64,000 nucleotides of DNA from an uncultured Chloroflexia bacterium. GTDB lineage: Bacteria; Chloroflexota; Chloroflexia; QHBQ01; JADMIH01. Position 1 is the stretch's first letter. Each line of letters opens with the position of its first letter. The stretch lies in the NCBI GenBank assembly GCA_963797095.1, contig CAWCNY010000005.1, positions 512,001-576,000 on the forward strand, given 5' to 3'. The notes under the pieces are model-generated. The model was not told the origin of the DNA. It saw only the letters and a list, made by a program, of their open reading frames with translations, and did not search any database. Positions 1,054 to 27,350 of the stretch are shown here, in pieces. The translations under genes and the position numbers were made by a program.

Positions 1054-2376
1054 TCACCCATACCGCTCTATCAGCTTATACACACACTCAACCCCGAACT
1101 CCAGCGCGTCCACAGGCACCCGCTCGTCCGAGTCGTGCACCGTCCTCACCAGCAAATCGTCGTCCGGCATCTTCAAAGGCGTAAACCCGTAGTTCTGTAT
1201 CCCCAATCTAGCGAAGTGCCGCCCGTCCGTCACCCCTGGCAGTAAATATGGCACAGGCTCCCCCTCCGGGTCGGCCTCGCGCATGATCCCGGCCAGCGTT
1301 TCATACATGCTCATGTCCGCCTCCGCCGGATAATAATCGTATCGCACCACCTCAAACTCCACATAATCCCCCACCATCTCCCGCAACTCGGCAAGCGCAT
1401 CGTCAGGCGTAAACCCCGGCAGCAGTCTCCCGTCCAGCATCACCGTAATCTCGCTGGGGATAACGTTTACCGCGTGCCCGCCCTGCACAATAGTAGGGCT
1501 AACCGTGTTGTGCAATATCGGGGCAATAAGCATCCCCATTGGCCCCAGGGCATCCAGCGCGCTATCTGAAGTCGCCGGATCAAGCAGCTTCTCGAACGCA
1601 CCCGACATCGAAGCGGGCAGATTCCCCCCGAACCCACGCAGCATCTTCTCGACCACAGGCGTAATATGTACGGGCAGCATCTTCTGGTCCAGCGTGGTCA
1701 GAAACCTCCCCAGCTTCGCCATCGCCCCGCCGCGCCTTGGCATCGATCCATGCCCTCCCGACCCCCGCACGGTCGCCCTGATCCTGCAAATCTGCTTCTC
1801 CCCCACCTGGATCGGGTAGAACTTCCGCCCCGCGATATACATAGTCTCTCCGCCCGACTCCCCTATCGAATACTTCACCCCCGCGAACAACTCAGGGTGC
1901 TCCTCGGCCAGCCACTTCGCCCCGAAATCCCCGCCCTGCTCCTCATCGCTCACCACCGCCAGCAAAATATCCCCGGCAGGCACAAACCCCTCCGCCTTCG
2001 CCCGCAACACCGCGCAAATCATATTAGCCACAGCACCCTTCATATCGAGCGCCCCCCGACCCCACAAATACCCGTCAACGATCTCCCCTCCGAACGGGTC
2101 GTGCTGCCACGCTTGGTTGGCCGTAGTCACCACATCCACATGCCCATGCATCAACAGCGGCGGAGCCTCCCCCCGCCCCTTCAACCGCGCAATAAGATTC
2201 GGCCTCTCAGGCACCCTCCCCTTCACAACAGTCTCGATCCCCACCTCCCGAAACAACCCCTCCACATAAGCCACACATTCAGCCTCGTTCCCAGGCGGAT
2301 TGGTAGTATCGAACCGCAACAGATTCTGCAACAACTCAACAGGCCGCCTATAAATATCATTCACTACATCGCTCAT
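1054..2376 (-). CDS. M20/M25/M40 family metallo-hydrolase (ArgE/DapE-like peptidase or deacylase)
   Basis: Motifs HGHVDVV, WGRGALDMKG, SDEE, GES and C-terminal HDSDERV. Confidence 0.92.
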   Translation of the reverse strand: MSDVVNDIYRRPVELLQNLLRFDTTNPPGNEAECVAYVEGLFREVGIETVVKGRVPERPNLIARLKGRGEAPPLLMHGHVDVVTTANQAWQHDPFGGEIVDGYLWGRGALDMKGAVANMICAVLRAKAEGFVPAGDILLAVVSDEEQGGDFGAKWLAEEHPELFAGVKYSIGESGGETMYIAGRKFYPIQVGEKQICRIRATVRGSGGHGSMPRRGGAMAKLGRFLTTLDQKMLPVHITPVVEKMLRGFGGNLPASMSGAFEKLLDPATSDSALDALGPMGMLIAPILHNTVSPTIVQGGHAVNVIPSEITVMLDGRLLPGFTPDDALAELREMVGDYVEFEVVRYDYYPAEADMSMYETLAGIMREADPEGEPVPYLLPGVTDGRHFARLGIQNYGFTPLKMPDDDLLVRTVHDSDERVPVDALEFGVECVYKLIERYG

Positions 2377-16209: not shown

Positions 16210-16398
16210 CGCGGATTTGTCGCCTATTGTAGGACTTTGGTTGCACCTCGCCAATGTGGTATGATCAGGTCGGTTTGTGTCTACGAGGCCAGGCGAAGCA
16301 GATATAGTTTCAAGACCACCTGTCGAGCAACACCCTGCACACAATAGCCACAGCGGGCAGAATTGTCATATTCATATTTGAGTAAGGAGGATCGAGAC

Positions 16399-18816
16399 AT
16401 GTTGCGCAAAAACAAATCATACAGCTGGCGTGGCCTGCTAATCATCGCATCACTGGCGCTTGCTATCGGTATATCAACCGGTATTGCTCTTGCGGCCTTA
16501 CCTGCATCACAGAACCCGGAAGGTGGTACGGCAGCCGCCGGACCGGGCATGGCCGACGTTGTGCCGTCGGACGTTCGGTCCGGCGAAGCCCAAATTCTCG
16601 GCAAACACGACGAGGCCGACACGCTGACCGTGCTGTTCATGCTCCCTTTCAAGGACCAGGCGGGCCTGGAAGCGTTCGTGGCCGATGTATCAAATCCAAA
16701 CAGCTCTAATTACGGACATTATCTTACTCTTGACGAAGAGAACGCACGCTATAATCCTGATCCCGCACGCGAACAGCGAGTCTCTGCGTGGCTAAGCGGA
16801 GAAGGTGTTTCCAATTTAGAATTGGTGCCGAACCACCTCTATGTATATGCTCGCGCAAGCGTAAGTACCCTCAGCAACCTCCTCAACATACAAATCAACG
16901 ATTACAGGGTGGGAGACAACACCTTCTACGCACCCGACCGCGTGCCAACTCTCCCGGCCGGTGTCAGCGCCGACGTCAATTGGATCGCAGGTCTATCCAA
17001 CCAGGACAAACTCCATACCGACCACTCTATGATAAACGGAGGTGGTGCAAAGGGCGAGGGCACCTCGTCAGCGCCCGATAGCGCGCCCCCTTACACACCC
17101 CAGGATATAGCCTATGCCTACGATGTCAACCCGCTATTGAACTCAGGCGCTAACGGCGCAGGCACCAACATCGCAATTACCCTCTGGACCCTGCCGCCAA
17201 GCGACAGCACCCTCAATACCTGGTCATCGCTCACCGGCTCGCCTGTGGCTACACGTGCCAACGGCCGCCTTGCCATCATTCTGACTGACAATGTACCAAG
17301 CAGCGACACCGACGATGGCGAGGCCGCACTCGACATAGAATCGTCCAGCGGGCTTGCAACCGGCGCGGTCATACGATACTATGAGGCCACCCAGCCTTCG
17401 TATGCCGATATGGCTAATGCGCTCAACCGGGCTGGCACCGATGCGGCCAACAACCGGTTCATCACCAACTCATGGGGTGGACCCGAGTCGCCATCGGGCT
17501 TCAATGCCACTAATGGCGTCCTGCAAGCAAATACCGCAACAGGCCACGACTATCTATTCTCCAGCGGAGATAACGGATCGTGGTCCAACGGCTCCGACCC
17601 ATATCCCGACTATCCTGCGTCCAGCGCCTATGTAACAGCCATTGGCGGCACGCGCTTCGCAGCCAACATCAATCAGAATTACCCCGGCGAGCGCACCTGG
17701 GACTACGACCCGACAGGCAACGGCGGCTATCCTGAGGGCAGCGGCGGGGGCTATGCTCTCTACAGCAACCGGCCAGCCTGGCAGGTCGCTCCAGGTTTCC
17801 CTCCAGGCCAGACCAAGCGCGGGTATCCCGACATAGCGGCTGATGCCGATCCGGTGACTGGCCTGCGCATTTGCACCGACTACTATGGCTGCACGCAGTT
17901 TGGAGGCACCAGCCTTTCCTCGCCTTTGTGGGCTGCCATGCTCGATATGACAGACCAGTATATTGTAGCGCGGGGCAGGCCACACCTGGGCTTCGTCAAC
18001 CCGGTGGTGTATCTACTGGCGCAAGCGCCTCAAGCCTACGCTCCCTACCACGATATCACTGTTGGCACCAACGGGGCGTACAATGCAGGCGCGGGCTGGG
18101 ATGCTATAACGGGTGTCGGTTCGCCCGATCTTTATAACTTTGCCCGCGACCTGGCTCCAGCTGCGGCAGCTACACCCACGCCTGAGCCGCCACCTTGCCC
18201 TGGCAGCCAGTTCACCGATGTGTGTCCAGGCTCAACTTTCTATACATCCATCACAAACCTTGTCAATGCGAACGTTGTGAACGGCTATACTGCATCGCCC
18301 CCCTGCCCGAACAGCAATTGGATACCCTGCTTCCTGCCGGGCAACACGGCCACACGCGGCCAGATCTCTAAGATCGTTGTGCTGGGAGCAAACTTAACTA
18401 TCAACACAAGCGGTGGGCCTCACTTCACCGACGTGGCGAGTAACTCGACGTTCTACCAGTACATCGAAACAATGTACAACGCCGGGATCATCAGCGGCTA
18501 CACAAGCGGCTGCTCAACAGGCAACCCATGCTTCAGGCCCGGTAACCCCGTGACCAGGGGGCAGCTTACGAAGATGGCAAGCCTCGGCTTCGGCTTCAAC
18601 GAGGCTGTGAGCGGGCAATCGTTTGCGGATATCCAATCCGGCTCCACCTACTACACATATGTGGAACGGCTCAAAGCGAGGGGTATCATAGGAGGTTACC
18701 CATGTGGCGGCATAGGTGAGCCATGCCTACCCGGCAACAAGCCATATTTCCGCCCCAACAGCAATGTGACGCGAGGGCAACTATCCAAGATAGTCGATCT
18801 CTGCCGACAGCAGTAA
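16399..18816 (+). CDS. Secreted S53 (sedolisin/kumamolisin) peptidase with propeptide and three C-terminal SLH-like repeats
   Basis: Signal peptide; EAALD (E/D), SSGD, GGTSLSSP; YHDITVG.N..Y.AG.GWDAITGVGSP; FTDV...TRGQ repeats; TAAGGAGG RBS. Confidence 0.9.
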   Translation: MLRKNKSYSWRGLLIIASLALAIGISTGIALAALPASQNPEGGTAAAGPGMADVVPSDVRSGEAQILGKHDEADTLTVLFMLPFKDQAGLEAFVADVSNPNSSNYGHYLTLDEENARYNPDPAREQRVSAWLSGEGVSNLELVPNHLYVYARASVSTLSNLLNIQINDYRVGDNTFYAPDRVPTLPAGVSADVNWIAGLSNQDKLHTDHSMINGGGAKGEGTSSAPDSAPPYTPQDIAYAYDVNPLLNSGANGAGTNIAITLWTLPPSDSTLNTWSSLTGSPVATRANGRLAIILTDNVPSSDTDDGEAALDIESSSGLATGAVIRYYEATQPSYADMANALNRAGTDAANNRFITNSWGGPESPSGFNATNGVLQANTATGHDYLFSSGDNGSWSNGSDPYPDYPASSAYVTAIGGTRFAANINQNYPGERTWDYDPTGNGGYPEGSGGGYALYSNRPAWQVAPGFPPGQTKRGYPDIAADADPVTGLRICTDYYGCTQFGGTSLSSPLWAAMLDMTDQYIVARGRPHLGFVNPVVYLLAQAPQAYAPYHDITVGTNGAYNAGAGWDAITGVGSPDLYNFARDLAPAAAATPTPEPPPCPGSQFTDVCPGSTFYTSITNLVNANVVNGYTASPPCPNSNWIPCFLPGNTATRGQISKIVVLGANLTINTSGGPHFTDVASNSTFYQYIETMYNAGIISGYTSGCSTGNPCFRPGNPVTRGQLTKMASLGFGFNEAVSGQSFADIQSGSTYYTYVERLKARGIIGGYPCGGIGEPCLPGNKPYFRPNSNVTRGQLSKIVDLCRQQ

Positions 18817-20041: not shown

Positions 20042-21301
20042 CTAGAGCACAAGACTGTCTCCCACAAACAGTCCTCCTTCGTCTGGCTTAGAGGGTACGC
20101 CCATCACTCTCCCTTTAGCAAAGTAAGGGAAATCAGGCCATTGAGCGGGGTCGCCTGCTGCCTTGCCAGGCACAGGCAACAGCCGCGCCGTCAGGGGCTT
20201 ATCGAGTTTTACCGCCAGCGTTGCCATATCTAGAATAACTCGTTCCAACTGCTTCAGGGACATATCACCCGCCAGGGGGATCGTATCAAGCCCAAGCCCG
20301 CACACCGCCGACATCAATAGCAGGGTATCGAGCGTCACCAGGCCCTCGCCTGCACGGTCGGCCAGCGTCTGATCCTCCAGCGCGGGCAGCATCAGACCTG
20401 AGTACCCGATAGTAGGCACCAGAGCACGAGCGTCCTTGAGCACAGATGTGACGAAGGCGGCAGCCGCCACAGTGCCAGGCCCACCCAATGGCCCACCTGC
20501 CACCAGTTCTAACGCCCGCCCTATACTTCGATCTGCCGAAGGGTATGGAGCCATCGAAATATCCAGCCCGGTGAACGTGTATCCGGCGTCGGCTCCAAAG
20601 GCCGCACAGGTCTCGGCCACCCGCCCGCCTTCATCGGCCAGCAGGGCCAGCAGGTTCCCACGCGCTTCCTCGTGTGAGCGCGCCCCCTCGAACGCCCGCA
20701 CTGCCAGGTCGGCGGCCTCCAACGCGATACCGAACTCCGGCCCGCTGCTATTCCTCTCATCCTCGATGTAATAGGAGGCAGGGAAGAATGGCACATGGGG
20801 CGGGCAATTGCATGCAGCCGCGAAGCGCAGATTCCCGAATCCGTCCGGCGTGCCATCGGCCAGCGCCCTGATCGCCCGTGCCGCCGCTCTCACCGCTTCC
20901 AGGCTGATTACGCCCGAACCATCACGCCGACCGCCCACCTGTATGCTTCCGAACAGGTTCTCTACTGCCAACAACAGGCCGGGCAGCGCATCCATCAGTG
21001 CTGTAACAACCCCGTCGTCTACATCTGAAACCGACTGGATCGTGCCAAGCGAGCAGTAGTCGAGACCAGACTCTGCACATAGCTTGCCAACCTCGGCCAC
21101 CGCAGCTTGCACACCATCTCCAGGTGTCAGCCAGCGCTCAACCGGCTGCGTCGAAAGGCGGGTGGTTTGCACAGTGAAGCCAGCCGCCTCCAACGCGGCC
21201 TTACCTGTCCCGGCAAACGCGCCAAGACGCTCGATCAGCGCACGGCGCTCCTCGGCGTCTACAGGCAAGGCCGCTCCAACCGTCAACGACCGGATATTCA
21301 T
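20042..21301 (-). CDS. DUF711 (PFL-like, UPF0210-related) family protein
   Basis: IRSLTVG, VQTTRLST, NLRFAA, PFFPASY, GLDISMAPYP, GYSGLMLP.LED, SAVCGLGLDTIPL.GD, KPLTARLLP. Confidence 0.85.
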   Translation of the reverse strand: MNIRSLTVGAALPVDAEERRALIERLGAFAGTGKAALEAAGFTVQTTRLSTQPVERWLTPGDGVQAAVAEVGKLCAESGLDYCSLGTIQSVSDVDDGVVTALMDALPGLLLAVENLFGSIQVGGRRDGSGVISLEAVRAAARAIRALADGTPDGFGNLRFAAACNCPPHVPFFPASYYIEDERNSSGPEFGIALEAADLAVRAFEGARSHEEARGNLLALLADEGGRVAETCAAFGADAGYTFTGLDISMAPYPSADRSIGRALELVAGGPLGGPGTVAAAAFVTSVLKDARALVPTIGYSGLMLPALEDQTLADRAGEGLVTLDTLLLMSAVCGLGLDTIPLAGDMSLKQLERVILDMATLAVKLDKPLTARLLPVPGKAAGDPAQWPDFPYFAKGRVMGVPSKPDEGGLFVGDSLVL

Positions 21302-21402
21302 GACAGCATACTTACCCTCTCAGAGTCAGAAGAACACGAAGAAAACATCTTCGTGCTCTTCCCAACCCATGACATTACGCTTGATTCCAGAGTGTCATGC
21401 AA

Positions 21403-22020
21403 CTATGGCTCAACCGGATACCCGGCGTTCTTCCATACATCGTAGCTGTACGGCCCCTGCAATACTTTTATGTTGGTGTAGCCTACACCCTTGAGCGAAT
21501 ACGCCACACTGGCGCTCTCTTCGTCGTGTGGTCATTGGCAGTACAGGATCACATTGCCTGTCTTGGGAATTTCGCTCAACCTGCTCTGGACATCAGGCTG
21601 TGGGATATTGACTGCCCCGGTGATATGACCCTGGTTATAAAACTGGGCATCGCGCACGTCGATTATTTTGACGTTGTTAGCATCGTACAGGGCCTTGGCA
21701 TCTGTGATCGTTATGCGCGGCAACACACTAGGGGAAGTCATAGTTGCAAATGCTATTGCTGTCTGGGTCATGTCTGGCAGAGCGGTTGGCCCGTTTGAGG
21801 TCGATGGTGAGGGCTGCCCACCCTTGTTCTGGCTAACCAGTATAACCACAAGCACCACCAATGCCAGCCCGCTTACCACAAGCAGCGATATGCCAAAGGC
21901 GTCCAACCGCCGCCTTGGTGGCCCGCCCGGCGCGTACCGTGGGTCGATAGGTCTGCTTGGCCCGCGCACCTTGGTGGCAGGCTTACCGCGTCGTGCATTC
22001 TTACCTGGTCTGTAACTCAT
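21403..22020 (-). CDS. Membrane-anchored rhodanese-domain protein, probable selenoprotein (in-frame UGA at 21532-21534)
   Basis: AGAAGGAG RBS and ATG at 22020; one TM helix; IIDVRD...GHITGAVNIP...ILYCQ-UGA-PHDEESASVAYSLKGVGYTNIKVLQG...WKNAGYPVEP-TAG completes the rhodanese fold; hairpin 3' of the UGA. Confidence 0.85.
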
Positions 22021-22200
22021 ACGCTCCTTCTCTAGCAAAGTGAATAGATTCCGACGAAAAATATAACATAGGCAGGCATGGGGGCACAAGTTCACTTGGC
22101 CCAATAGCTGTATGGCGCATCCCGGTGGCAGCCGCCGGGTTGAATGAAGGCATCGAGGTTGAGCAACTATATCTGAATCTGACAAATATGATCGCAAATC

Positions 22201-22230
22201 TTGACACTACAGGCGCTCATGATGTAAACT
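22201..22230 (+). promoter_or_regulatory. Sigma70-type promoter of the S-box leader
   Basis: TTGACA-N18-TAAACT just upstream of the riboswitch. Confidence 0.55.
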
Positions 22231-22247
22231 GAGCGCGACAGCCCAAT

Positions 22248-22345
22248 AGAAATCGAGAGTGGTAGCGAGAGAACTGGCTCGTTGACCTACCCGGCAACCG
22301 ATCAAAGACGCGGTGCCAAACCCAGCCCCCATGGGGAAGGATTCG
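22248..22345 (+). ncRNA. SAM-I (S-box) riboswitch aptamer
   Basis: ATCGAGAG..GAGAGAACTGGCTCGTTGA..CGGCAACC...GGTGCCAAACCC...GAT conserved core, upstream of a methionine-regeneration gene. Confidence 0.88.
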
Positions 22346-22364
22346 GCCTTTCGGCAAACGCGAC

Positions 22365-22388
22365 GCCTCTCCTTGTAGAGGCTTTTTT
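22365..22388 (+). terminator. Intrinsic terminator (riboswitch expression platform)
   Basis: gcctct-ccttgt-agaggc-tttttt. Confidence 0.8.
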
Positions 22389-22518
22389 GTTGTAAGAATG
22401 AACAAAGAACAATAAGTGACAGGTGACAAGTGACTAGTGACGAGTATCAGGAATATGCAGTAGGCAGTGGTCAAGTAGCGCTCGTCACTTGTCAAATCAT
22501 CAGGCTTACGAGAAGAAT

Positions 22519-24498
22519 ATGACAGAGACCCAACTACACCCATTCCTGGCCCGCCTCAAGGAGCCGGATCCTATCATATGCGATGGCGCGATGGGCACCA
22601 TGCTCTACTCTATGGGTGTGCCTGCCAATAGCTGCTTCGACGAGTGCAACATCACGCAACCCGACATCGTCAGGCGCGTGCACGAGGCTTACATCAAGGC
22701 GGGAGCCGAGATTATAGAGACCAACACTTATGGGGCAAACCGCTTCAAGCTGGCATCGTTCGACCTTGCCGATAAAGTCAAACGGATCAACATGCGTGGG
22801 GCGCGACTCGCCCGCGAAGTACGAGAGGTAAGCGGCCAGCCTGTAATAGTAGCCGGGGCTGTCGGTCCGCTCGGCAAGACGATCCAGCCGGTCGGCCTCA
22901 TTCCAGCCCTGGAAGCCCGAGATTTCTTCCGCGAGCAGGTAGAAGCTCTATTGGAAGGCGGGGTCGACCTGATTATCCTGGAGACCTTCCGGGACCTTGA
23001 GGAGATGCGCCAGGCCCTGATCGCCGTCCGCGACGTCTGCGACCTCCCTGTCGTTGCCCAGATGACTTTTGAGGAAGATGGCCGAACCCAGCTAGGAAGC
23101 ACTCCCCAGGAGATCGTTAGCGCCCTCCAGCAATTGGGAGCCGATGTGATCGGCGCGAACTGCTCCACAGGCCCCCAACGCATGTCGCGCGTTATCGCTG
23201 ATATGGTATCTCATGCTACGATCCCTGTGTCGGCCCAGCCCAACGCCGGGTGGCCCGAAACGGTCAACAACCGCGTAGTGTACGTCTCTACACCTGAGTA
23301 CATGGCTAACTTCGCCCGCCGCATGTTCGATGGCGGCGCGAAGATCCTCGGCGGCTGCTGCGGCACAACTCCCGCCCACATCAAGGCCCTTACTGATGCC
23401 CTTCGGGCGACGAAGGACGAAGGACAAACGACGGACGAAGGAAGAGCAACAAAGACAGATACGGCAGCGCCGTACGTCCTCCGTCCATCAGCCATCACCA
23501 CCGGCGCACTTCGTCCCACCGAGGCCGAGCCGCCGATGCTCCGCGAGGCCGCACCACTCGAAGTAAGTGAGGAGCACACTTCTACCCACAACCAGCCCGG
23601 TTCGTTCGGGTGGAGGCTAGGCAAAGAATTCATTGTTAGCGTCGAACTTGCCCCGCCGCGAGGCATCAACCCTACCAAGGTACTGGCGGGTGCCGAGATG
23701 CTTTTGCGCAAGGGCGTGGATGCCGTCAATGTCACCGACAGCGCCCTGGGCCGCGCCTCCATGAGCGCCCTCGCGGTTTGCTATCAGGTGCTTGGACGCA
23801 CCGGCATGACCGTCATCCCCCACTTCACCACCCGCGACCGCACACTAATGGGCATCCAATCCGAGTTACTAGGCGCCCATTCTATGGGCTTGCGCCACAT
23901 TCTGGCTCTCACAGGCGACGCCCCCAACCCGGTTGACCGCCTCGGCTCCTCAGCCGTGTTCGACATCGACTCTATAGGCTTGATCAAGCTGATCACCAGG
24001 CTCAACCGGGGCGAAGACCTGGCGGGCAACTCCATCGGAGGGATCACCGACTTCCTCATCGGGTGCGCCTTCAACCCGACCGCCCGCGATATCCCTCTCG
24101 AAAAGGAGCGCCTTGCTCAGAAGCTTGAGGCAGGCGCGCATTTCGTAATGACACAGCCCGTCTACGACCTTGAAGTGGTAGATCGCACCCTCGAACATAT
24201 AAAAGACTTCAACGCCAATATCATCCTCGGCATACTACCGCTCCAAAGCTGGAAGCACGCTGAGTTTCTCCACAACGAGGTGCCAGGCATCGTGATCCCG
24301 GAATTCGTGCTCGCCAAGATGTACGAGGCCGGCCCCAACGGCAGGCAGGCGGGCCTTGAAATGGCCCAGGAAATCCTTCAGTACGCTTACTCGCGCTACG
24401 CTGGCGTCTACCTGATGCCATCCTTTGGCCGCTACGAGATGAGCGCCAGCGTGCTCGATGTGCTCCCCAGGTTCCAGAGCGCCGCCATCGAAGCTTGA
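22519..24498 (+). CDS. yitJ: Bifunctional homocysteine S-methyltransferase / methylenetetrahydrofolate reductase (YitJ-like)
   Basis: DGAMGT, ETNTYGAN, GANCSTGP, GGCCGTTPAHI, then SVELAPPRG, VNVTDS, HFTTRDR, LALTGD, FVMTQPVYD, HNEVPGI. Confidence 0.92.
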   Translation: MTETQLHPFLARLKEPDPIICDGAMGTMLYSMGVPANSCFDECNITQPDIVRRVHEAYIKAGAEIIETNTYGANRFKLASFDLADKVKRINMRGARLAREVREVSGQPVIVAGAVGPLGKTIQPVGLIPALEARDFFREQVEALLEGGVDLIILETFRDLEEMRQALIAVRDVCDLPVVAQMTFEEDGRTQLGSTPQEIVSALQQLGADVIGANCSTGPQRMSRVIADMVSHATIPVSAQPNAGWPETVNNRVVYVSTPEYMANFARRMFDGGAKILGGCCGTTPAHIKALTDALRATKDEGQTTDEGRATKTDTAAPYVLRPSAITTGALRPTEAEPPMLREAAPLEVSEEHTSTHNQPGSFGWRLGKEFIVSVELAPPRGINPTKVLAGAEMLLRKGVDAVNVTDSALGRASMSALAVCYQVLGRTGMTVIPHFTTRDRTLMGIQSELLGAHSMGLRHILALTGDAPNPVDRLGSSAVFDIDSIGLIKLITRLNRGEDLAGNSIGGITDFLIGCAFNPTARDIPLEKERLAQKLEAGAHFVMTQPVYDLEVVDRTLEHIKDFNANIILGILPLQSWKHAEFLHNEVPGIVIPEFVLAKMYEAGPNGRQAGLEMAQEILQYAYSRYAGVYLMPSFGRYEMSASVLDVLPRFQSAAIEA

Positions 24499-26063: not shown

Positions 26064-27350
26064 GGAGCCTTCCGCAGATAAGGTGATCAAAGTAGCTGAG
26101 GCTTGATAGTGTAGTTCCATTCCCCGTGGAAGGCATCTTTGAACAGATTGAGGGCAGCCACTTGCTCATCAGTGACCTTGATCCCTGTCGGATATGCATG
26201 GCTGTCCTTGAGCGCCCTCACCACTAACCCCTCTTGGGTGGTAGTATGCGAGATCAGTTCCAACACCACTTCCATAGACGTGAGCGGGGTGGCCCGCCAA
26301 TTTATTGATATGTACGAAAACACTCGATGCTCTATCTTGTTCCATTTGCTGGTAGCAGGGGGATAATGCGCCACCGTGATGGCCAGTTGTTCTTCATTGG
26401 CCAGTGCCTGTAGCTTTTGCTTCCACAGGCGGTTTCTCACCCCATTGGAGCCTCCTCCATCAGCGGTGATCAGCAGTTCCTTTTTGCCTGGATAGAGGGT
26501 TTTGCCCCACTTCTGCCACCACCTGCGGATACTCTCCACCGCAAACTCAGCCGTATCATGGTCAATACCCACATTCACAAACCCCACGTTCACAAACCCC
26601 ACGTTATGCACCAGGTCATATATCCCGTAGGGGATGGCCTTGCCATCGGCCAGGGAAACAAAGTCATACACCGATACCACCCTCTCTTCCCCTTGAGCCT
26701 GCCATTCCCGTCCGTTGTTCCTGAACTGGCCTATCAACTCCTTCTTCTTGCAGTCAACGGAGATGATAGGAGCGCCTTTGTGTTCAAACTCTTTGCACCG
26801 AGCGTTGATGTGAGTAAATTGCTCATCCCGGTCAGGGTGCGATTGGCCTTCGATATTCTTCTTGTTGACGCGCAGAGAAAATCTCTGCTCGTGCAGCAAT
26901 TCGGCCAGTGCTGACTTCTTGATGTGATGCCCTTTGCCTTCAAGGGCTTGCACCAGGTGTGCCAACGATTTGGTGGTCCATCGTACAAGGCTCATCGGGT
27001 CACCCTTGGGTTCCAATTCCCTCTCCAGATCGGGGAGCAGGGTGGGATCGGTCTGTGCAAGCTTTTTCATGCCCCCACCAGGCTTGCGGATGCGTTCTCC
27101 TGGTTGATAGTTGTCCCCTGCCTCCCGTTCTTTCAGACCCCGCTTGACCGTGTTGAGGGATACCCCTGCCTCCCGAGCTACTGTGCTGGTGCTTCCTCTG
27201 CGTTGAGCCTCGGCTGCCAGGTACTGTCTCCACTGCTTCTCATTTAGCAGTGTCCGAAGCTGTTGGTATTCTTGTTCGGTCGAGAGCTTTTCCATACTCT
27301 CTATCTTCGCATATCTCCCTCTCTATGTCAACTAATTCTCGGAAGGCTCC
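26064..27350 (-). mobile_element. ISAzo13-family insertion sequence (1287 bp)
   Basis: Terminal IRs ggagccttccg (26064) and cggaaggctcc (27350); TAA duplicated on both flanks. Confidence 0.92.
26087..27295 (-). CDS. ISAzo13-family DDE transposase
   Basis: GDPMS..RWTTKS, HPDRDEQF, ISVDCKKKELIG, PYGIYD, DHDTAEFAV, ADGGGSN, SKWNKIEHR, FHGEWNYTI. Confidence 0.93.
   Translation of the reverse strand: MEKLSTEQEYQQLRTLLNEKQWRQYLAAEAQRRGSTSTVAREAGVSLNTVKRGLKEREAGDNYQPGERIRKPGGGMKKLAQTDPTLLPDLERELEPKGDPMSLVRWTTKSLAHLVQALEGKGHHIKKSALAELLHEQRFSLRVNKKNIEGQSHPDRDEQFTHINARCKEFEHKGAPIISVDCKKKELIGQFRNNGREWQAQGEERVVSVYDFVSLADGKAIPYGIYDLVHNVGFVNVGFVNVGIDHDTAEFAVESIRRWWQKWGKTLYPGKKELLITADGGGSNGVRNRLWKQKLQALANEEQLAITVAHYPPATSKWNKIEHRVFSYISINWRATPLTSMEVVLELISHTTTQEGLVVRALKDSHAYPTGIKVTDEQVAALNLFKDAFHGEWNYTIKPQLL

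What the first reader, a model, noticed from the sequence alone, without database searches (positions are those of the whole stretch)
21403..22020. Hidden selenoprotein: membrane-anchored rhodanese with a C-Q-U-P active-site motif
Seen: the ORF track stops at ILYCQ-TGA (21532-21534), exactly at the rhodanese active-site loop. The frame continues for 42 more sense codons, PHDEESASVAYSLKGVGYTNIKVLQGPYSYDVWKNAGYPVEP, then TAG. This supplies the canonical rhodanese C-terminus (S..A..L...GY.N...L.G....W..AGYP). Established: some rhodanese domains carry YCxCPxExxSA at this position, and Cys-to-Sec (UGA) replacement defines selenoproteins. Inference: a 205-aa protein with a basic cytoplasmic N-tail, one TM helix and an outward-facing CxU rhodanese. 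That would be a surface-exposed sulfur/selenium transfer or redox enzyme, and standard annotation would truncate it.
Basis: partly seen in the sequence, partly recalled or inferred. Interest (0 to 1): 0.82.

Follow-up and report, generated by a model that had tools for sequence, protein, structure and literature searches.

The report
Missed membrane-anchored rhodanese selenoprotein gene
This is a real gene for a selenium-containing, membrane-anchored rhodanese-type protein that gene callers cut short at its UGA codon; the type of protein was already predicted in other bacteria, so it is a solid but not surprising find.

Summary
On the minus strand, ATG 22020 to TAG 21403 reads as 205 aa with one in-frame TGA (21532-21534) in the motif ILYC-Q-U-P. 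The genome, from an uncultured Chloroflexia lineage, has selA, selB, selC and a Sec-type selD. It also has two paralogues with the same YCQ-TGA-P motif about 2 kb downstream of selB. In 30 related loci the aligned codon is TGA in 20 and TGT/TGC in 10. Conservation and purifying selection continue past it. All 40 TGA forms examined carry a hairpin starting 16-17 nt after the UGA, with frozen synonymous sites. The 8 Cys forms lack it. Public protein collections hold this gene as a 162-aa stump ending in YCQ. The protein has a basic N-tail, one TM helix and an outward-facing rhodanese domain. Cys161 is the canonical catalytic Cys and Sec163 lies two residues on, in an acidic loop two residues longer than usual. 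The best family match is NCBIfam NF041203 (rhodanese_LYCAU, CxU), but below its cut-off. CxU rhodanese selenoproteins have been listed since 2005, so this is a new, extracytoplasmic subfamily of a known kind. The proposed Cys-Sec redox function is inferred, not shown.

The parts
21403..22020 (-). Full coding sequence of the 205-aa selenoprotein (ATG 22020, in-frame TGA 21532-21534, stop TAG 21403-21405)
   Evidence: orthologue alignment
22024..22030 (-). Shine-Dalgarno-like GAAGGAG, 3 nt upstream of the ATG
   Evidence: read
21901..22020 (-). Basic N-terminal tail, residues 1-40 (12 K/R, 2 D/E). It holds the conserved motif RGPSRPxDPRxAPG and is predicted cytoplasmic.
   Evidence: R23, P24, R28 invariant or nearly so; the positive-inside rule is an inference
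21829..21900 (-). Single transmembrane helix, residues 41-64
   Evidence: AlphaFold2 helix H41-64; hydrophobic stretch seen
21448..21705 (-). Rhodanese homology domain (Pfam match, residues 106-191; folded domain about 100-205)
21532..21540 (-). Active-site motif Cys161-Gln162-Sec163 (TGC CAA TGA)
21501..21515 (-). Core of the SECIS-like hairpin GCGCC-AGUGU-GGCGU. The stem starts 16 nt after the UGA, and G-U-G is at the loop apex.
20042..21301 (-). DUF711 (PF05167) gene directly downstream on the same strand; a conserved neighbour and probable operon partner
   Evidence: no terminator-like site between the two genes

Best explanation
The TGA at 21532-21534 is a selenocysteine codon. The gene encodes a 205-aa type-II membrane protein. 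It has a basic N-tail in the cytoplasm, one TM helix, a low-complexity linker and a rhodanese domain on the outer face of the membrane. The active-site loop reads Cys161-Gln-Sec163-Pro-His-Asp-Glu-Glu-Ser. SelB with Sec-tRNA(Sec) is recruited by a G+C-rich hairpin that starts 16 nt after the UGA and has G-U-G at its apex. Shown here: the recoding signature, the domain, and the truncated public gene call. Inferred: Cys161 (the canonical rhodanese cysteine) and Sec163 cycle between a selenol/thiol pair and a selenenylsulfide. On this view the protein is an extracytoplasmic thiol, persulfide or chalcogen oxidoreductase or carrier, not a classical thiosulfate sulfurtransferase. Its reductant would be a membrane-anchored ResA/TlpA-type thioredoxin, such as the one encoded beside the two paralogues.
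For: 1. Sec machinery. tRNA-Sec scores 69.1 bits (cut-off 47) and ARAGORN calls tRNA-SeC with anticodon tca. selA scores 566.7 bits and selB 323.5 bits. selD scores 324.6 bits and has its own in-frame TGA.
2. Cys/Sec pairing. Of 30 loci from 30 related genomes (G000 included), 20 have TGA and 10 have TGT/TGC at the aligned codon. Leaving out four loci from unpublished genomes, the split is 18 and 8. All 22 further copies have TGA. Among 11 distant Chloroflexota loci, 10 have TGA and 1 has TCC.
3. The sequence after the TGA is translated. P164, E168, S169, L176, Y181, G189, W196 and A199 are invariant in 20 sequences. Median dN/dS over the 26 codons after the TGA is 0.26 (34 of 36 pairs computable). 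Over the 60 codons before it the median is 0.31 (27 of 36 pairs).
4. SECIS-like hairpin. It is present in 40 of 40 TGA forms. Third codon positions inside the stem are nearly frozen (entropy 0-0.34 bits), while flanking third positions vary (0.88-1.88 bits). The 8 Cys forms lack the hairpin. The five core pairs form in 44-49 of 49 distinct sequences. Two sequences carry a different 7-8 bp stem at the same place.
5. Genome-wide, the hairpin motif occurs 8 times. Four occurrences have a TGA 13-19 nt upstream, and three of those are the three rhodanese genes, in frame.
6. TGA is an ordinary stop in this genome: it ends 1155 of 3212 open frames of 300 codons or more.
7. Two paralogues with YCQ-TGA-P lie downstream of selB, next to a membrane-anchored ResA-like CPPC thioredoxin.
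8. Cys161 aligns with the catalytic Cys of the 3tp9 rhodanese domain, and the loop is 2 residues longer. The fold is rhodanese: pLDDT is above 92 over the domain, and the Foldseek top hits 3tp9 and 6mxv have E about 1e-9.
9. One distant member has TGA at both loop positions (Y-U-T-U-P), as expected if both positions are redox-active.
10. Some distant members start with lipoprotein-type signal peptides (for example LLAAC, TALAC, LSLGC). That places the domain outside the cytoplasm.
Against: There is no direct evidence of selenium incorporation or of expression. No RNA run was found.

The 81-nt stretch around the UGA does not fold better than shuffles (z = -0.51; 55 of 200 shuffles fold as well). 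The case for the hairpin therefore rests on comparison, not on energy.

Covariation is thin because the stem hardly varies. Only 2 of 7 pairs change on both sides, and slid controls reach similar covariation scores. The energy difference between Sec and Cys forms is modest (median -9.1 against -6.2 kcal/mol, p = 0.038, sequences not independent). Three Cys forms have another hairpin of -9.9 kcal/mol.

The redox-pair mechanism, the topology and the ResA-like partner are inferences. The ResA-like gene lies next to the paralogue type in only 2 of the 10 other loci L049-L058.

The gene's own conserved neighbour, DUF711, is a protein of unknown function with no obvious link to this chemistry.
Confidence: 0.88

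Rival explanations
1. The TGA is a nonsense mutation, an assembly error or a sequencing error, and the gene is a pseudogene or a truncated 162-aa protein.
For: The public gene call is 162 aa. The contigs of the one sequencing run found do not cover the codon, so the base could not be rechecked in reads.
Against: The same TGA is present in 20 of 30 related loci, in 22 further copies and in 10 of 11 distant copies. Purifying selection continues after it. A truncation would remove half of the rhodanese fold.
Confidence: 0.01
2. The UGA is read through by something other than Sec: near-cognate Trp or Cys insertion, or a lineage-wide reassignment of TGA.
For: UGA followed by C is recalled as a leaky termination context. 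All 50 aligned sequences have UGA-CC.
Against: TGA ends 1155 of 3212 long open frames in this genome. The complete Sec machinery is present. The codon alternates with Cys codons only, apart from one Ser. A conserved hairpin is found only in the TGA forms.
Confidence: 0.03
3. The selenoprotein is real but works as a sulfane-sulfur or selenium carrier. A persulfide or perselenide on Cys161/Sec163 would be passed to an acceptor, as in PspE, GlpE or Sud. It would not be a dithiol-type oxidoreductase.
For: The rhodanese fold and the canonical catalytic Cys are kept. The closest named relatives after NF041203 are GlpE, PspE and the MoeB rhodanese domains.
Against: The loop has no basic residue and three acidic ones (H-D-E-E), and it is two residues longer than in sulfurtransferases. 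This fits binding of an anionic thiosulfate or persulfide donor poorly (recalled chemistry). The strictly conserved second chalcogen at +2 (C or U) suggests a two-residue redox couple. GlpE and PspE cut-offs are not met.
Confidence: 0.25
4. The selenoprotein is real but works as a cell-surface metal or metalloid binding or detoxifying protein (As, Hg, Cu, Te or Se species). The C-x-U-P-H-D-E-E loop would be the ligand set.
For: The loop is rich in soft (Cys, Sec) and hard (His, Asp, Glu) ligands. The paralogue cluster is followed by MgtE_N/CBS and Nramp transporter genes. Rhodanese-fold arsenate reductases exist (recalled).
Against: No ars, mer or cop genes were seen beside any copy examined. 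His165 is not conserved: N, A, G or S stand there in other members.
Confidence: 0.1

Closest known systems
NCBIfam NF041203 rhodanese_LYCAU, 'rhodanese-related (seleno)protein'. [quoted passage not shown] I saw passages only. The review table attributes the family to Zhang & Gladyshev 2005, which I did not read.
   Same: A single rhodanese domain with Cys-x-Sec at the active-site loop. It is the best NCBIfam match, covering model positions 10-124 of 126. Cys-containing homologues exist.
   Different: The score is 72.1 bits against a cut-off of 115, so this protein is not a member by the curators' criterion. None of 301 sampled Chloroflexota genomes reaches the cut-off. The motif is C-Q-U, not C-A-U. 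About 100 extra N-terminal residues are present (basic tail, TM helix, linker), where the model is 126 positions long. The inferred location is extracytoplasmic.
TsoB, rhodanese/DsbD fusion-like selenoprotein (NF045694; 'form 5', motif UxxxxU, in the table of PMC13188914)
   Same: A Sec-containing rhodanese domain tied to membrane thiol-redox machinery. The match is weak (24.9 bits).
   Different: The cut-off is 805 bits. TsoB is a 572-position fusion with two Sec residues in another spacing. Here there is no DsbD part and only one Sec.
PspE and GlpE single-domain thiosulfate sulfurtransferases (NF007627, TIGR02981, NF001195)
   Same: The rhodanese fold with the catalytic Cys at the start of the loop. 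PspE is also extracytoplasmic (recalled).
   Different: The scores are 30-34 bits against cut-offs of 102-126. Those enzymes have one Cys and no Sec. Their loop is shorter than the acidic, two-residue-longer loop here.
Rhodanese selenoprotein forms 1, 2 and 4 (UxxS, UxxG; table of PMC13188914)
   Same: Rhodanese-domain selenoproteins predicted by the same Cys/Sec-pair logic.
   Different: In those forms Sec replaces the catalytic Cys itself. Here the catalytic Cys is kept and Sec lies at +2.

Membership tests
Bacterial selenoprotein gene (SelB/SECIS-dependent UGA recoding) | In-frame UGA aligned with Cys in homologues | tested here: met
   20 TGA and 10 TGY among 30 loci. 22 of 22 further copies have TGA. 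10 of 11 distant copies have TGA.
Bacterial selenoprotein gene (SelB/SECIS-dependent UGA recoding) | Coding conservation continues downstream of the UGA | tested here: met
   Invariant residues up to A199. Median dN/dS after the UGA is 0.26.
Bacterial selenoprotein gene (SelB/SECIS-dependent UGA recoding) | Stem-loop shortly downstream of the UGA with G/U in the apical loop (bSECIS criteria as recalled: loop 16-37 nt from the UGA) | tested here: met
   Hairpin in 40 of 40 TGA forms, with the loop 23-25 nt after the UGA. G35 and G37 are invariant and U36 is kept in 38 of 40. Synonymous sites are frozen. Covariation is weak, and energy alone is not significant.
Bacterial selenoprotein gene (SelB/SECIS-dependent UGA recoding) | selA, selB, selC and selD in the genome | tested here: met
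Bacterial selenoprotein gene (SelB/SECIS-dependent UGA recoding) | Selenium actually incorporated at the UGA | not testable with these tools
   Needs 75Se labelling or mass spectrometry.
Rhodanese homology domain (PF00581) | Pfam score over the gathering cut-off | tested here: met
   59 bits against 22.2, residues 106-191
Rhodanese homology domain (PF00581) | Rhodanese alpha/beta fold | tested here: met
   pLDDT 92-98 over residues 100-205. Foldseek hits 3tp9 (E 1.1e-9, rmsd 1.4) and 6mxv, with 150 matches at E <= 0.001.
Rhodanese homology domain (PF00581) | Cys at the first position of the active-site loop | tested here: met
   Cys161 aligns with the Cys of the motif vyCrtg in 3tp9. It is invariant in 20 sequences.
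NF041203 rhodanese_LYCAU | Whole-protein score at or above the curated cut-off (115 bits) | tested here: not met
   72.1 bits. The paralogues score 72.7 and 67.2, and distant Chloroflexota members 60.7-90.9. 0 of 301 genomes are over the cut-off.
NF041203 rhodanese_LYCAU | C-x-U in the active-site loop | tested here: met
   C-Q-U. The family's motif is given as CxU in PMC13188914 and PMC9312934. One close homologue has C-A-U (L085).
NF045694 TsoB | Score at or above 805 bits; rhodanese/DsbD-like fusion with two Sec | tested here: not met
   24.9 bits, a single domain, one Sec
Thiosulfate sulfurtransferase GlpE/PspE | Score over the curated cut-offs (102-126 bits) | tested here: not met
   34.0, 32.8 and 30.5 bits

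The most novel reading that the evidence does not exclude
Chloroflexota may carry a lineage-wide selenium-based redox module at the cell surface. Membrane-anchored or lipoprotein CxU rhodaneses, three per genome here, would act as selenenylsulfide oxidoreductases outside the cytoplasm. They would be fed by ResA/TlpA-type thioredoxins, and two of the genes are kept next to selB. The window's type sits in a nearly obligate operon with DUF711 and has a conserved cytoplasmic tail motif. It could therefore couple an outside redox or chalcogen signal to a cytoplasmic protein of so far unknown function. That would give DUF711 its first functional handle.
Probability: 0.2. Interest if true: 0.65.

Novelty: new member of a known kind. 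Interest (0 to 1): 0.42.

Why it matters
The gene is mis-called in public collections. The window's own product is on record as a 162-aa stump, and eight of the other relatives I fetched likewise end in ...YCQ. The nearest curated model does not reach this clade. Annotation pipelines will therefore keep truncating it across Chloroflexota.

Recognising the clade adds an extracytoplasmic, membrane-anchored subfamily to the CxU rhodanese selenoproteins, none of which has a tested function. It offers natural Sec/Cys pairs within one genus for comparing the two chalcogens. It also provides a compact, well-conserved SECIS-like hairpin for this phylum.

The finding does not overturn anything. The kind of protein and the logic of its detection are established.

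Tried and rejected
1. Scan of genome contigs with the single protein: 86 pattern matches, none confirmed. The alignment-based scan found 11 Cys-form loci, all from Chloroflexia or Chloroflexota MAGs. Its pattern holds C at the Sec position, so TGA forms could not appear.

2. Sequencing runs: one DNA holder (a soil metagenome, share 0.39) and no RNA holder listed. Its contigs cover 21287-21472, 21543-21697 and 22138-22250 but not the TGA codon. The base call could not be rechecked and nothing can be said on expression.

3. Thermodynamics of the window's own 81 nt: not better than shuffles.

4. Rfam: no SECIS-type match in 21000-22600, only a SAM riboswitch on the other strand and a chance snoRNA hit.

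5. Earlier findings of this scan: nothing for this genome or this sequence.

6. The two open frames between selB and the paralogues that contain a TGA under TGA=U are not selenoproteins. Their TGAs lie upstream of the likely starts of an SDR-type reductase and a ResA-like thioredoxin.

7. Literature. 'rhodanese' + 'selenocysteine' + 'membrane-anchored' gave 0 papers. 'selenoprotein' + 'Chloroflexi' + 'rhodanese' gave 4 papers; I opened only PMC1794560, where the passages do not describe this protein. 'LYCAU' gave only unrelated words. 'DUF711' gave 2 papers whose titles are unrelated. Haft & Tolstoy 2025 (PMC12013261) is not held. The deep-Sep paper does not mention rhodanese or Chloroflexi in its main text. 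Supplements are closed. The supplementary lists of these selenoproteome surveys may already contain Chloroflexota CxU rhodaneses.

8. A complex prediction of the ResA-like domain with the rhodanese domain was considered and not run. It would be a transient enzyme-substrate pair, and the neighbourhood evidence is thin.

Full report
**What is in the sequence**

On the minus strand an ATG at 22020 follows a GAAGGAG box at 22030-22024. The frame runs to TGC-CAA-TGA (21540-21532) and continues for 42 sense codons to TAG at 21405-21403. Under table 11 the ORF list ends at ...ILYCQ. With TGA read as U the product is 205 aa. Pfam's Rhodanese model (59 bits, cut-off 22.2) matches residues 106-191, so the domain straddles the TGA.

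**Does the organism decode Sec?**

The window is C5:512001-576000 of a 6.0-Mb assembly in 8 contigs. The assembly holds the full machinery:
- a tRNA-Sec at 69.1 bits (gathering score 47), which ARAGORN calls tRNA-SeC with anticodon tca
- selA at 566.7 bits
- selB at 323.5 bits
- selD at 324.6 bits, with an in-frame TGA of its own in the motif QCAGUAGK

TGA is otherwise an ordinary stop. It ends 1155 of 3212 open frames of 300 codons or more, so a reassigned code is not the explanation.

**Paralogues**

A Pfam search of the genome found 11 rhodanese matches, three with one in-frame TGA. The other two lie at C4:290342-291115 and C4:291157-291945. Both read ...AYCQ-TGA-P..., and both have an N-terminal tail and a TM helix. 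They sit about 2 kb downstream of selB. The gene order is selB, an SDR-type reductase, a membrane-anchored ResA/TlpA-like thioredoxin with a CPPC motif, rhodanese, rhodanese.

**Homologues elsewhere**

A six-frame search with the read-through protein hit all 41 genomes searched (G000 plus 40 relatives).

I extracted the aligned codon from the best locus of each of 30 genomes, G000 included. Twenty have TGA (motif YCQUP) and ten have TGT or TGC (motif YC[E/D]CP). Four of these loci come from genomes flagged unpublished (L040, L043, L047, L051). Without them the split is 18 and 8.

Twenty further copies from the same genomes, plus the two paralogues, all have TGA: 21 as CQU and one as CAU.

At phylum scale, 56 of 401 Chloroflexota genomes have a match at E <= 1e-12, most of them with one TGA. 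In the 11 distant loci I read, 10 have TGA. Their motifs are CTU, CSU and CAU, plus one UTU with TGA at both positions. One locus has Ser (TCC).

At least six published genomes pair a Cys form of the window's type with a TGA form of the paralogue type (G004, G015, G014, G009, G007, G019). The Cys forms are therefore not a result of losing Sec decoding. A maximum-likelihood tree of 20 sequences needs three Sec/Cys changes, but well-supported branches alone force only one.

**Translation past the UGA**

In a 20-sequence alignment, P164, E168, S169, L176, Y181, G189, W196 and A199 are invariant. Median dN/dS over the 26 codons after the UGA is 0.26 (34 of 36 pairs computable). Over the 60 codons before it the median is 0.31 (27 of 36 pairs). 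Synonymous sites after the UGA are constrained by the hairpin, so the first figure is if anything an overestimate.

**The SECIS-like element**

All 40 TGA forms examined (unpublished loci left out) carry a hairpin at the same place. It reads GCGCC-NGUGN-GGCGC, and the stem starts 16-17 nt after the UGA.

Third codon positions inside it (alignment columns 30, 33, 36, 39, 42) have entropies of 0-0.34 bits. Flanking third positions have 0.88-1.88 bits. In the 8 Cys forms, columns 33 and 39 vary (1.55 and 1.30 bits).

One comparison is telling. The Cys orthologue L030 encodes the same peptide ESASVAY as the window. It differs at two synonymous sites within the hairpin region, one in the apical loop and one in the stem.

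Two TGA forms (L048, L050) replace the stem with GAGAGCAA/UUGCUCUC at the same place, shifted by one base. With ten distant members added, the five core pairs form in 44-49 of 49 distinct sequences.

Evidence on the other side:
- Covariation proper is thin. Two of seven pairs change on both sides, and slid controls reach similar covariation scores.
- The window's 81 nt do not fold better than shuffles.
- The energy contrast between Sec and Cys forms is modest and the sequences are related (median -9.1 against -6.2 kcal/mol, p = 0.038).

The case for the element therefore rests on positional conservation and frozen synonymous sites.

Genome-wide, the hairpin motif occurs 8 times. Four occurrences have a TGA 13-19 nt upstream, and three of these are the three rhodanese genes, in frame.

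**The protein**

AlphaFold2 on the 20-sequence alignment gives mean pLDDT 81, a helix at residues 41-64 and a domain with pLDDT 92-98 from about residue 100. Foldseek returns rhodanese structures: 3tp9 at E 1.1e-9 and rmsd 1.4, and 6mxv.

In the sequence alignment to 3tp9, Cys161 falls on the catalytic Cys, and the loop here is two residues longer. The loop Q-U-P-H-D-E-E has no basic residue.

Residues 1-40 hold 12 K/R and 2 D/E. The 38 residues after the helix are net neutral (counted). By the positive-inside rule the tail is cytoplasmic and the domain faces out.

Several distant members replace the anchor with lipoprotein-type signal peptides. That supports an extracytoplasmic location for the family.

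The tail carries a conserved motif, RGPSRPxDPRxAPG. The only other real ORF in the genome with a similar N-terminal motif is the ResA-like protein.

**Mechanism**

The recoding signature and the domain architecture are shown. The chemistry is inferred.

Three observations point to a Cys161/Sec163 selenenylsulfide couple rather than to a classical thiosulfate sulfurtransferase:
- the second chalcogen at +2 is strictly conserved (C or U)
- one member has Sec at both positions
- the loop is acidic and lengthened

A ResA-type reductant is a plausible partner. It is adjacent to the paralogue type in G000 and in only 2 of the 10 other loci L049-L058, so this link is weak.

Persulfide or selenium carriage and metal(loid) binding remain open as rival functions.

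**Neighbourhood of the window's gene**

A DUF711 (PF05167) gene follows on the same strand in 19 of the 20 loci L029-L048. The exception is L038, and three of the 19 are from unpublished genomes. In the window no terminator-like site lies between the two genes. DUF711 has no known function, and the two papers that mention it have unrelated titles.

**Comparison with what is known**

NCBIfam's best match is NF041203, rhodanese_LYCAU, 'rhodanese-related (seleno)protein'. The score is 72.1 bits against a cut-off of 115, over model positions 10-124 of 126. The paralogues and the distant Chloroflexota members also have it as best match, at 60.7-90.9 bits. None of 301 sampled Chloroflexota genomes reaches the cut-off.

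Two reviews list a CxU rhodanese selenoprotein ('form 3', NF041203; 'COG0607 form 2') among predicted families. The later one attributes it to Zhang & Gladyshev 2005. I saw passages of PMC13188914 and PMC9312934 only.

The kind of protein is therefore known. This clade falls outside the curated model and adds a membrane anchor or signal peptide.

Public protein collections hold the window's product as 162 aa. Nine of the 14 relatives I fetched, the window's own included, end in ...YCQ. The full-length hits are Cys forms, named 'rhodanese-related sulfurtransferase' or 'rhodanese-like domain-containing protein'. The Cys orthologues come from MAGs labelled Chloroflexia or Chloroflexota bacterium.

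**Verdict**

This is a real, mis-annotated selenoprotein gene. I file it as a new extracytoplasmic subfamily of the known CxU rhodanese selenoproteins. The identification is firm. The function is a hypothesis. Interest is moderate.

Noticed in passing
window 22247-22346 (+), terminator-like site 22365-22382 (+): SAM riboswitch (RF00162, 45.4 bits, gathering score 44.4) with a terminator-like hairpin. It lies ahead of a bifunctional homocysteine S-methyltransferase/MTHFR gene at 22489-24498 (NF006396, 696.6 bits).
   Followed up: partly
G000 C4:286588-291945 (L090 4589-9946): Gene cluster in the order selB, SDR-type reductase, membrane-anchored ResA/TlpA-like thioredoxin (CPPC), then two membrane-anchored YCQ-U-P rhodanese paralogues. 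It is followed by PIG-L (opposite strand), MgtE_N/CBS and Nramp genes.
   Followed up: partly
G000 C2:243109 (L026): selD itself has an in-frame TGA (motif QCAGUAGK). A hairpin GGCGCAG-GUG-CUGCGCC starts 26 nt after it and has the same GUG apex as the rhodanese hairpin.
   Followed up: partly
window 20042-21301 (-): DUF711/UPF0210-type gene directly downstream of the rhodanese gene. This pairing is kept in 19 of 20 orthologous loci. The function of DUF711 is unknown.
   Followed up: partly
L091 (G047:C25), about 1480-1836 (-): A rhodanese homologue without a membrane anchor that has TGA at both loop positions (ILY-U-T-U-P).
   Followed up: no
loci L104 and L106, and other places listed: NF041203-like domains with one TGA lie inside open frames of 531-579 aa in other Chloroflexota. 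These may be fusion proteins (TsoB-like?).
   Followed up: no
window 21901-22020 (-); G000 C4:289505: The N-terminal cytoplasmic motif RGPSRPxDPRxAPG is conserved in the window's orthologue group. The only other real ORF in the genome with a similar motif is the ResA-like thioredoxin (KTRPPSRPAPARP).
   Followed up: partly
G000 C2:979438 (-): A fourth genomic occurrence of TGA followed by the GCGCC-NGUGN-GGCG hairpin motif, in an unexamined frame. It may be chance or another recoding site.
   Followed up: no
window 26087-27295 (-): DDE transposase gene (PF07592 DDE_Tnp_ISAZ013, 416.8 bits).
   Followed up: no
window 16363-18816 (+): An 817-aa protein with a pro-kumamolisin activation domain and S-layer homology domains. 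It is a cell-surface protease candidate and fits an organism with an S-layer.
   Followed up: no
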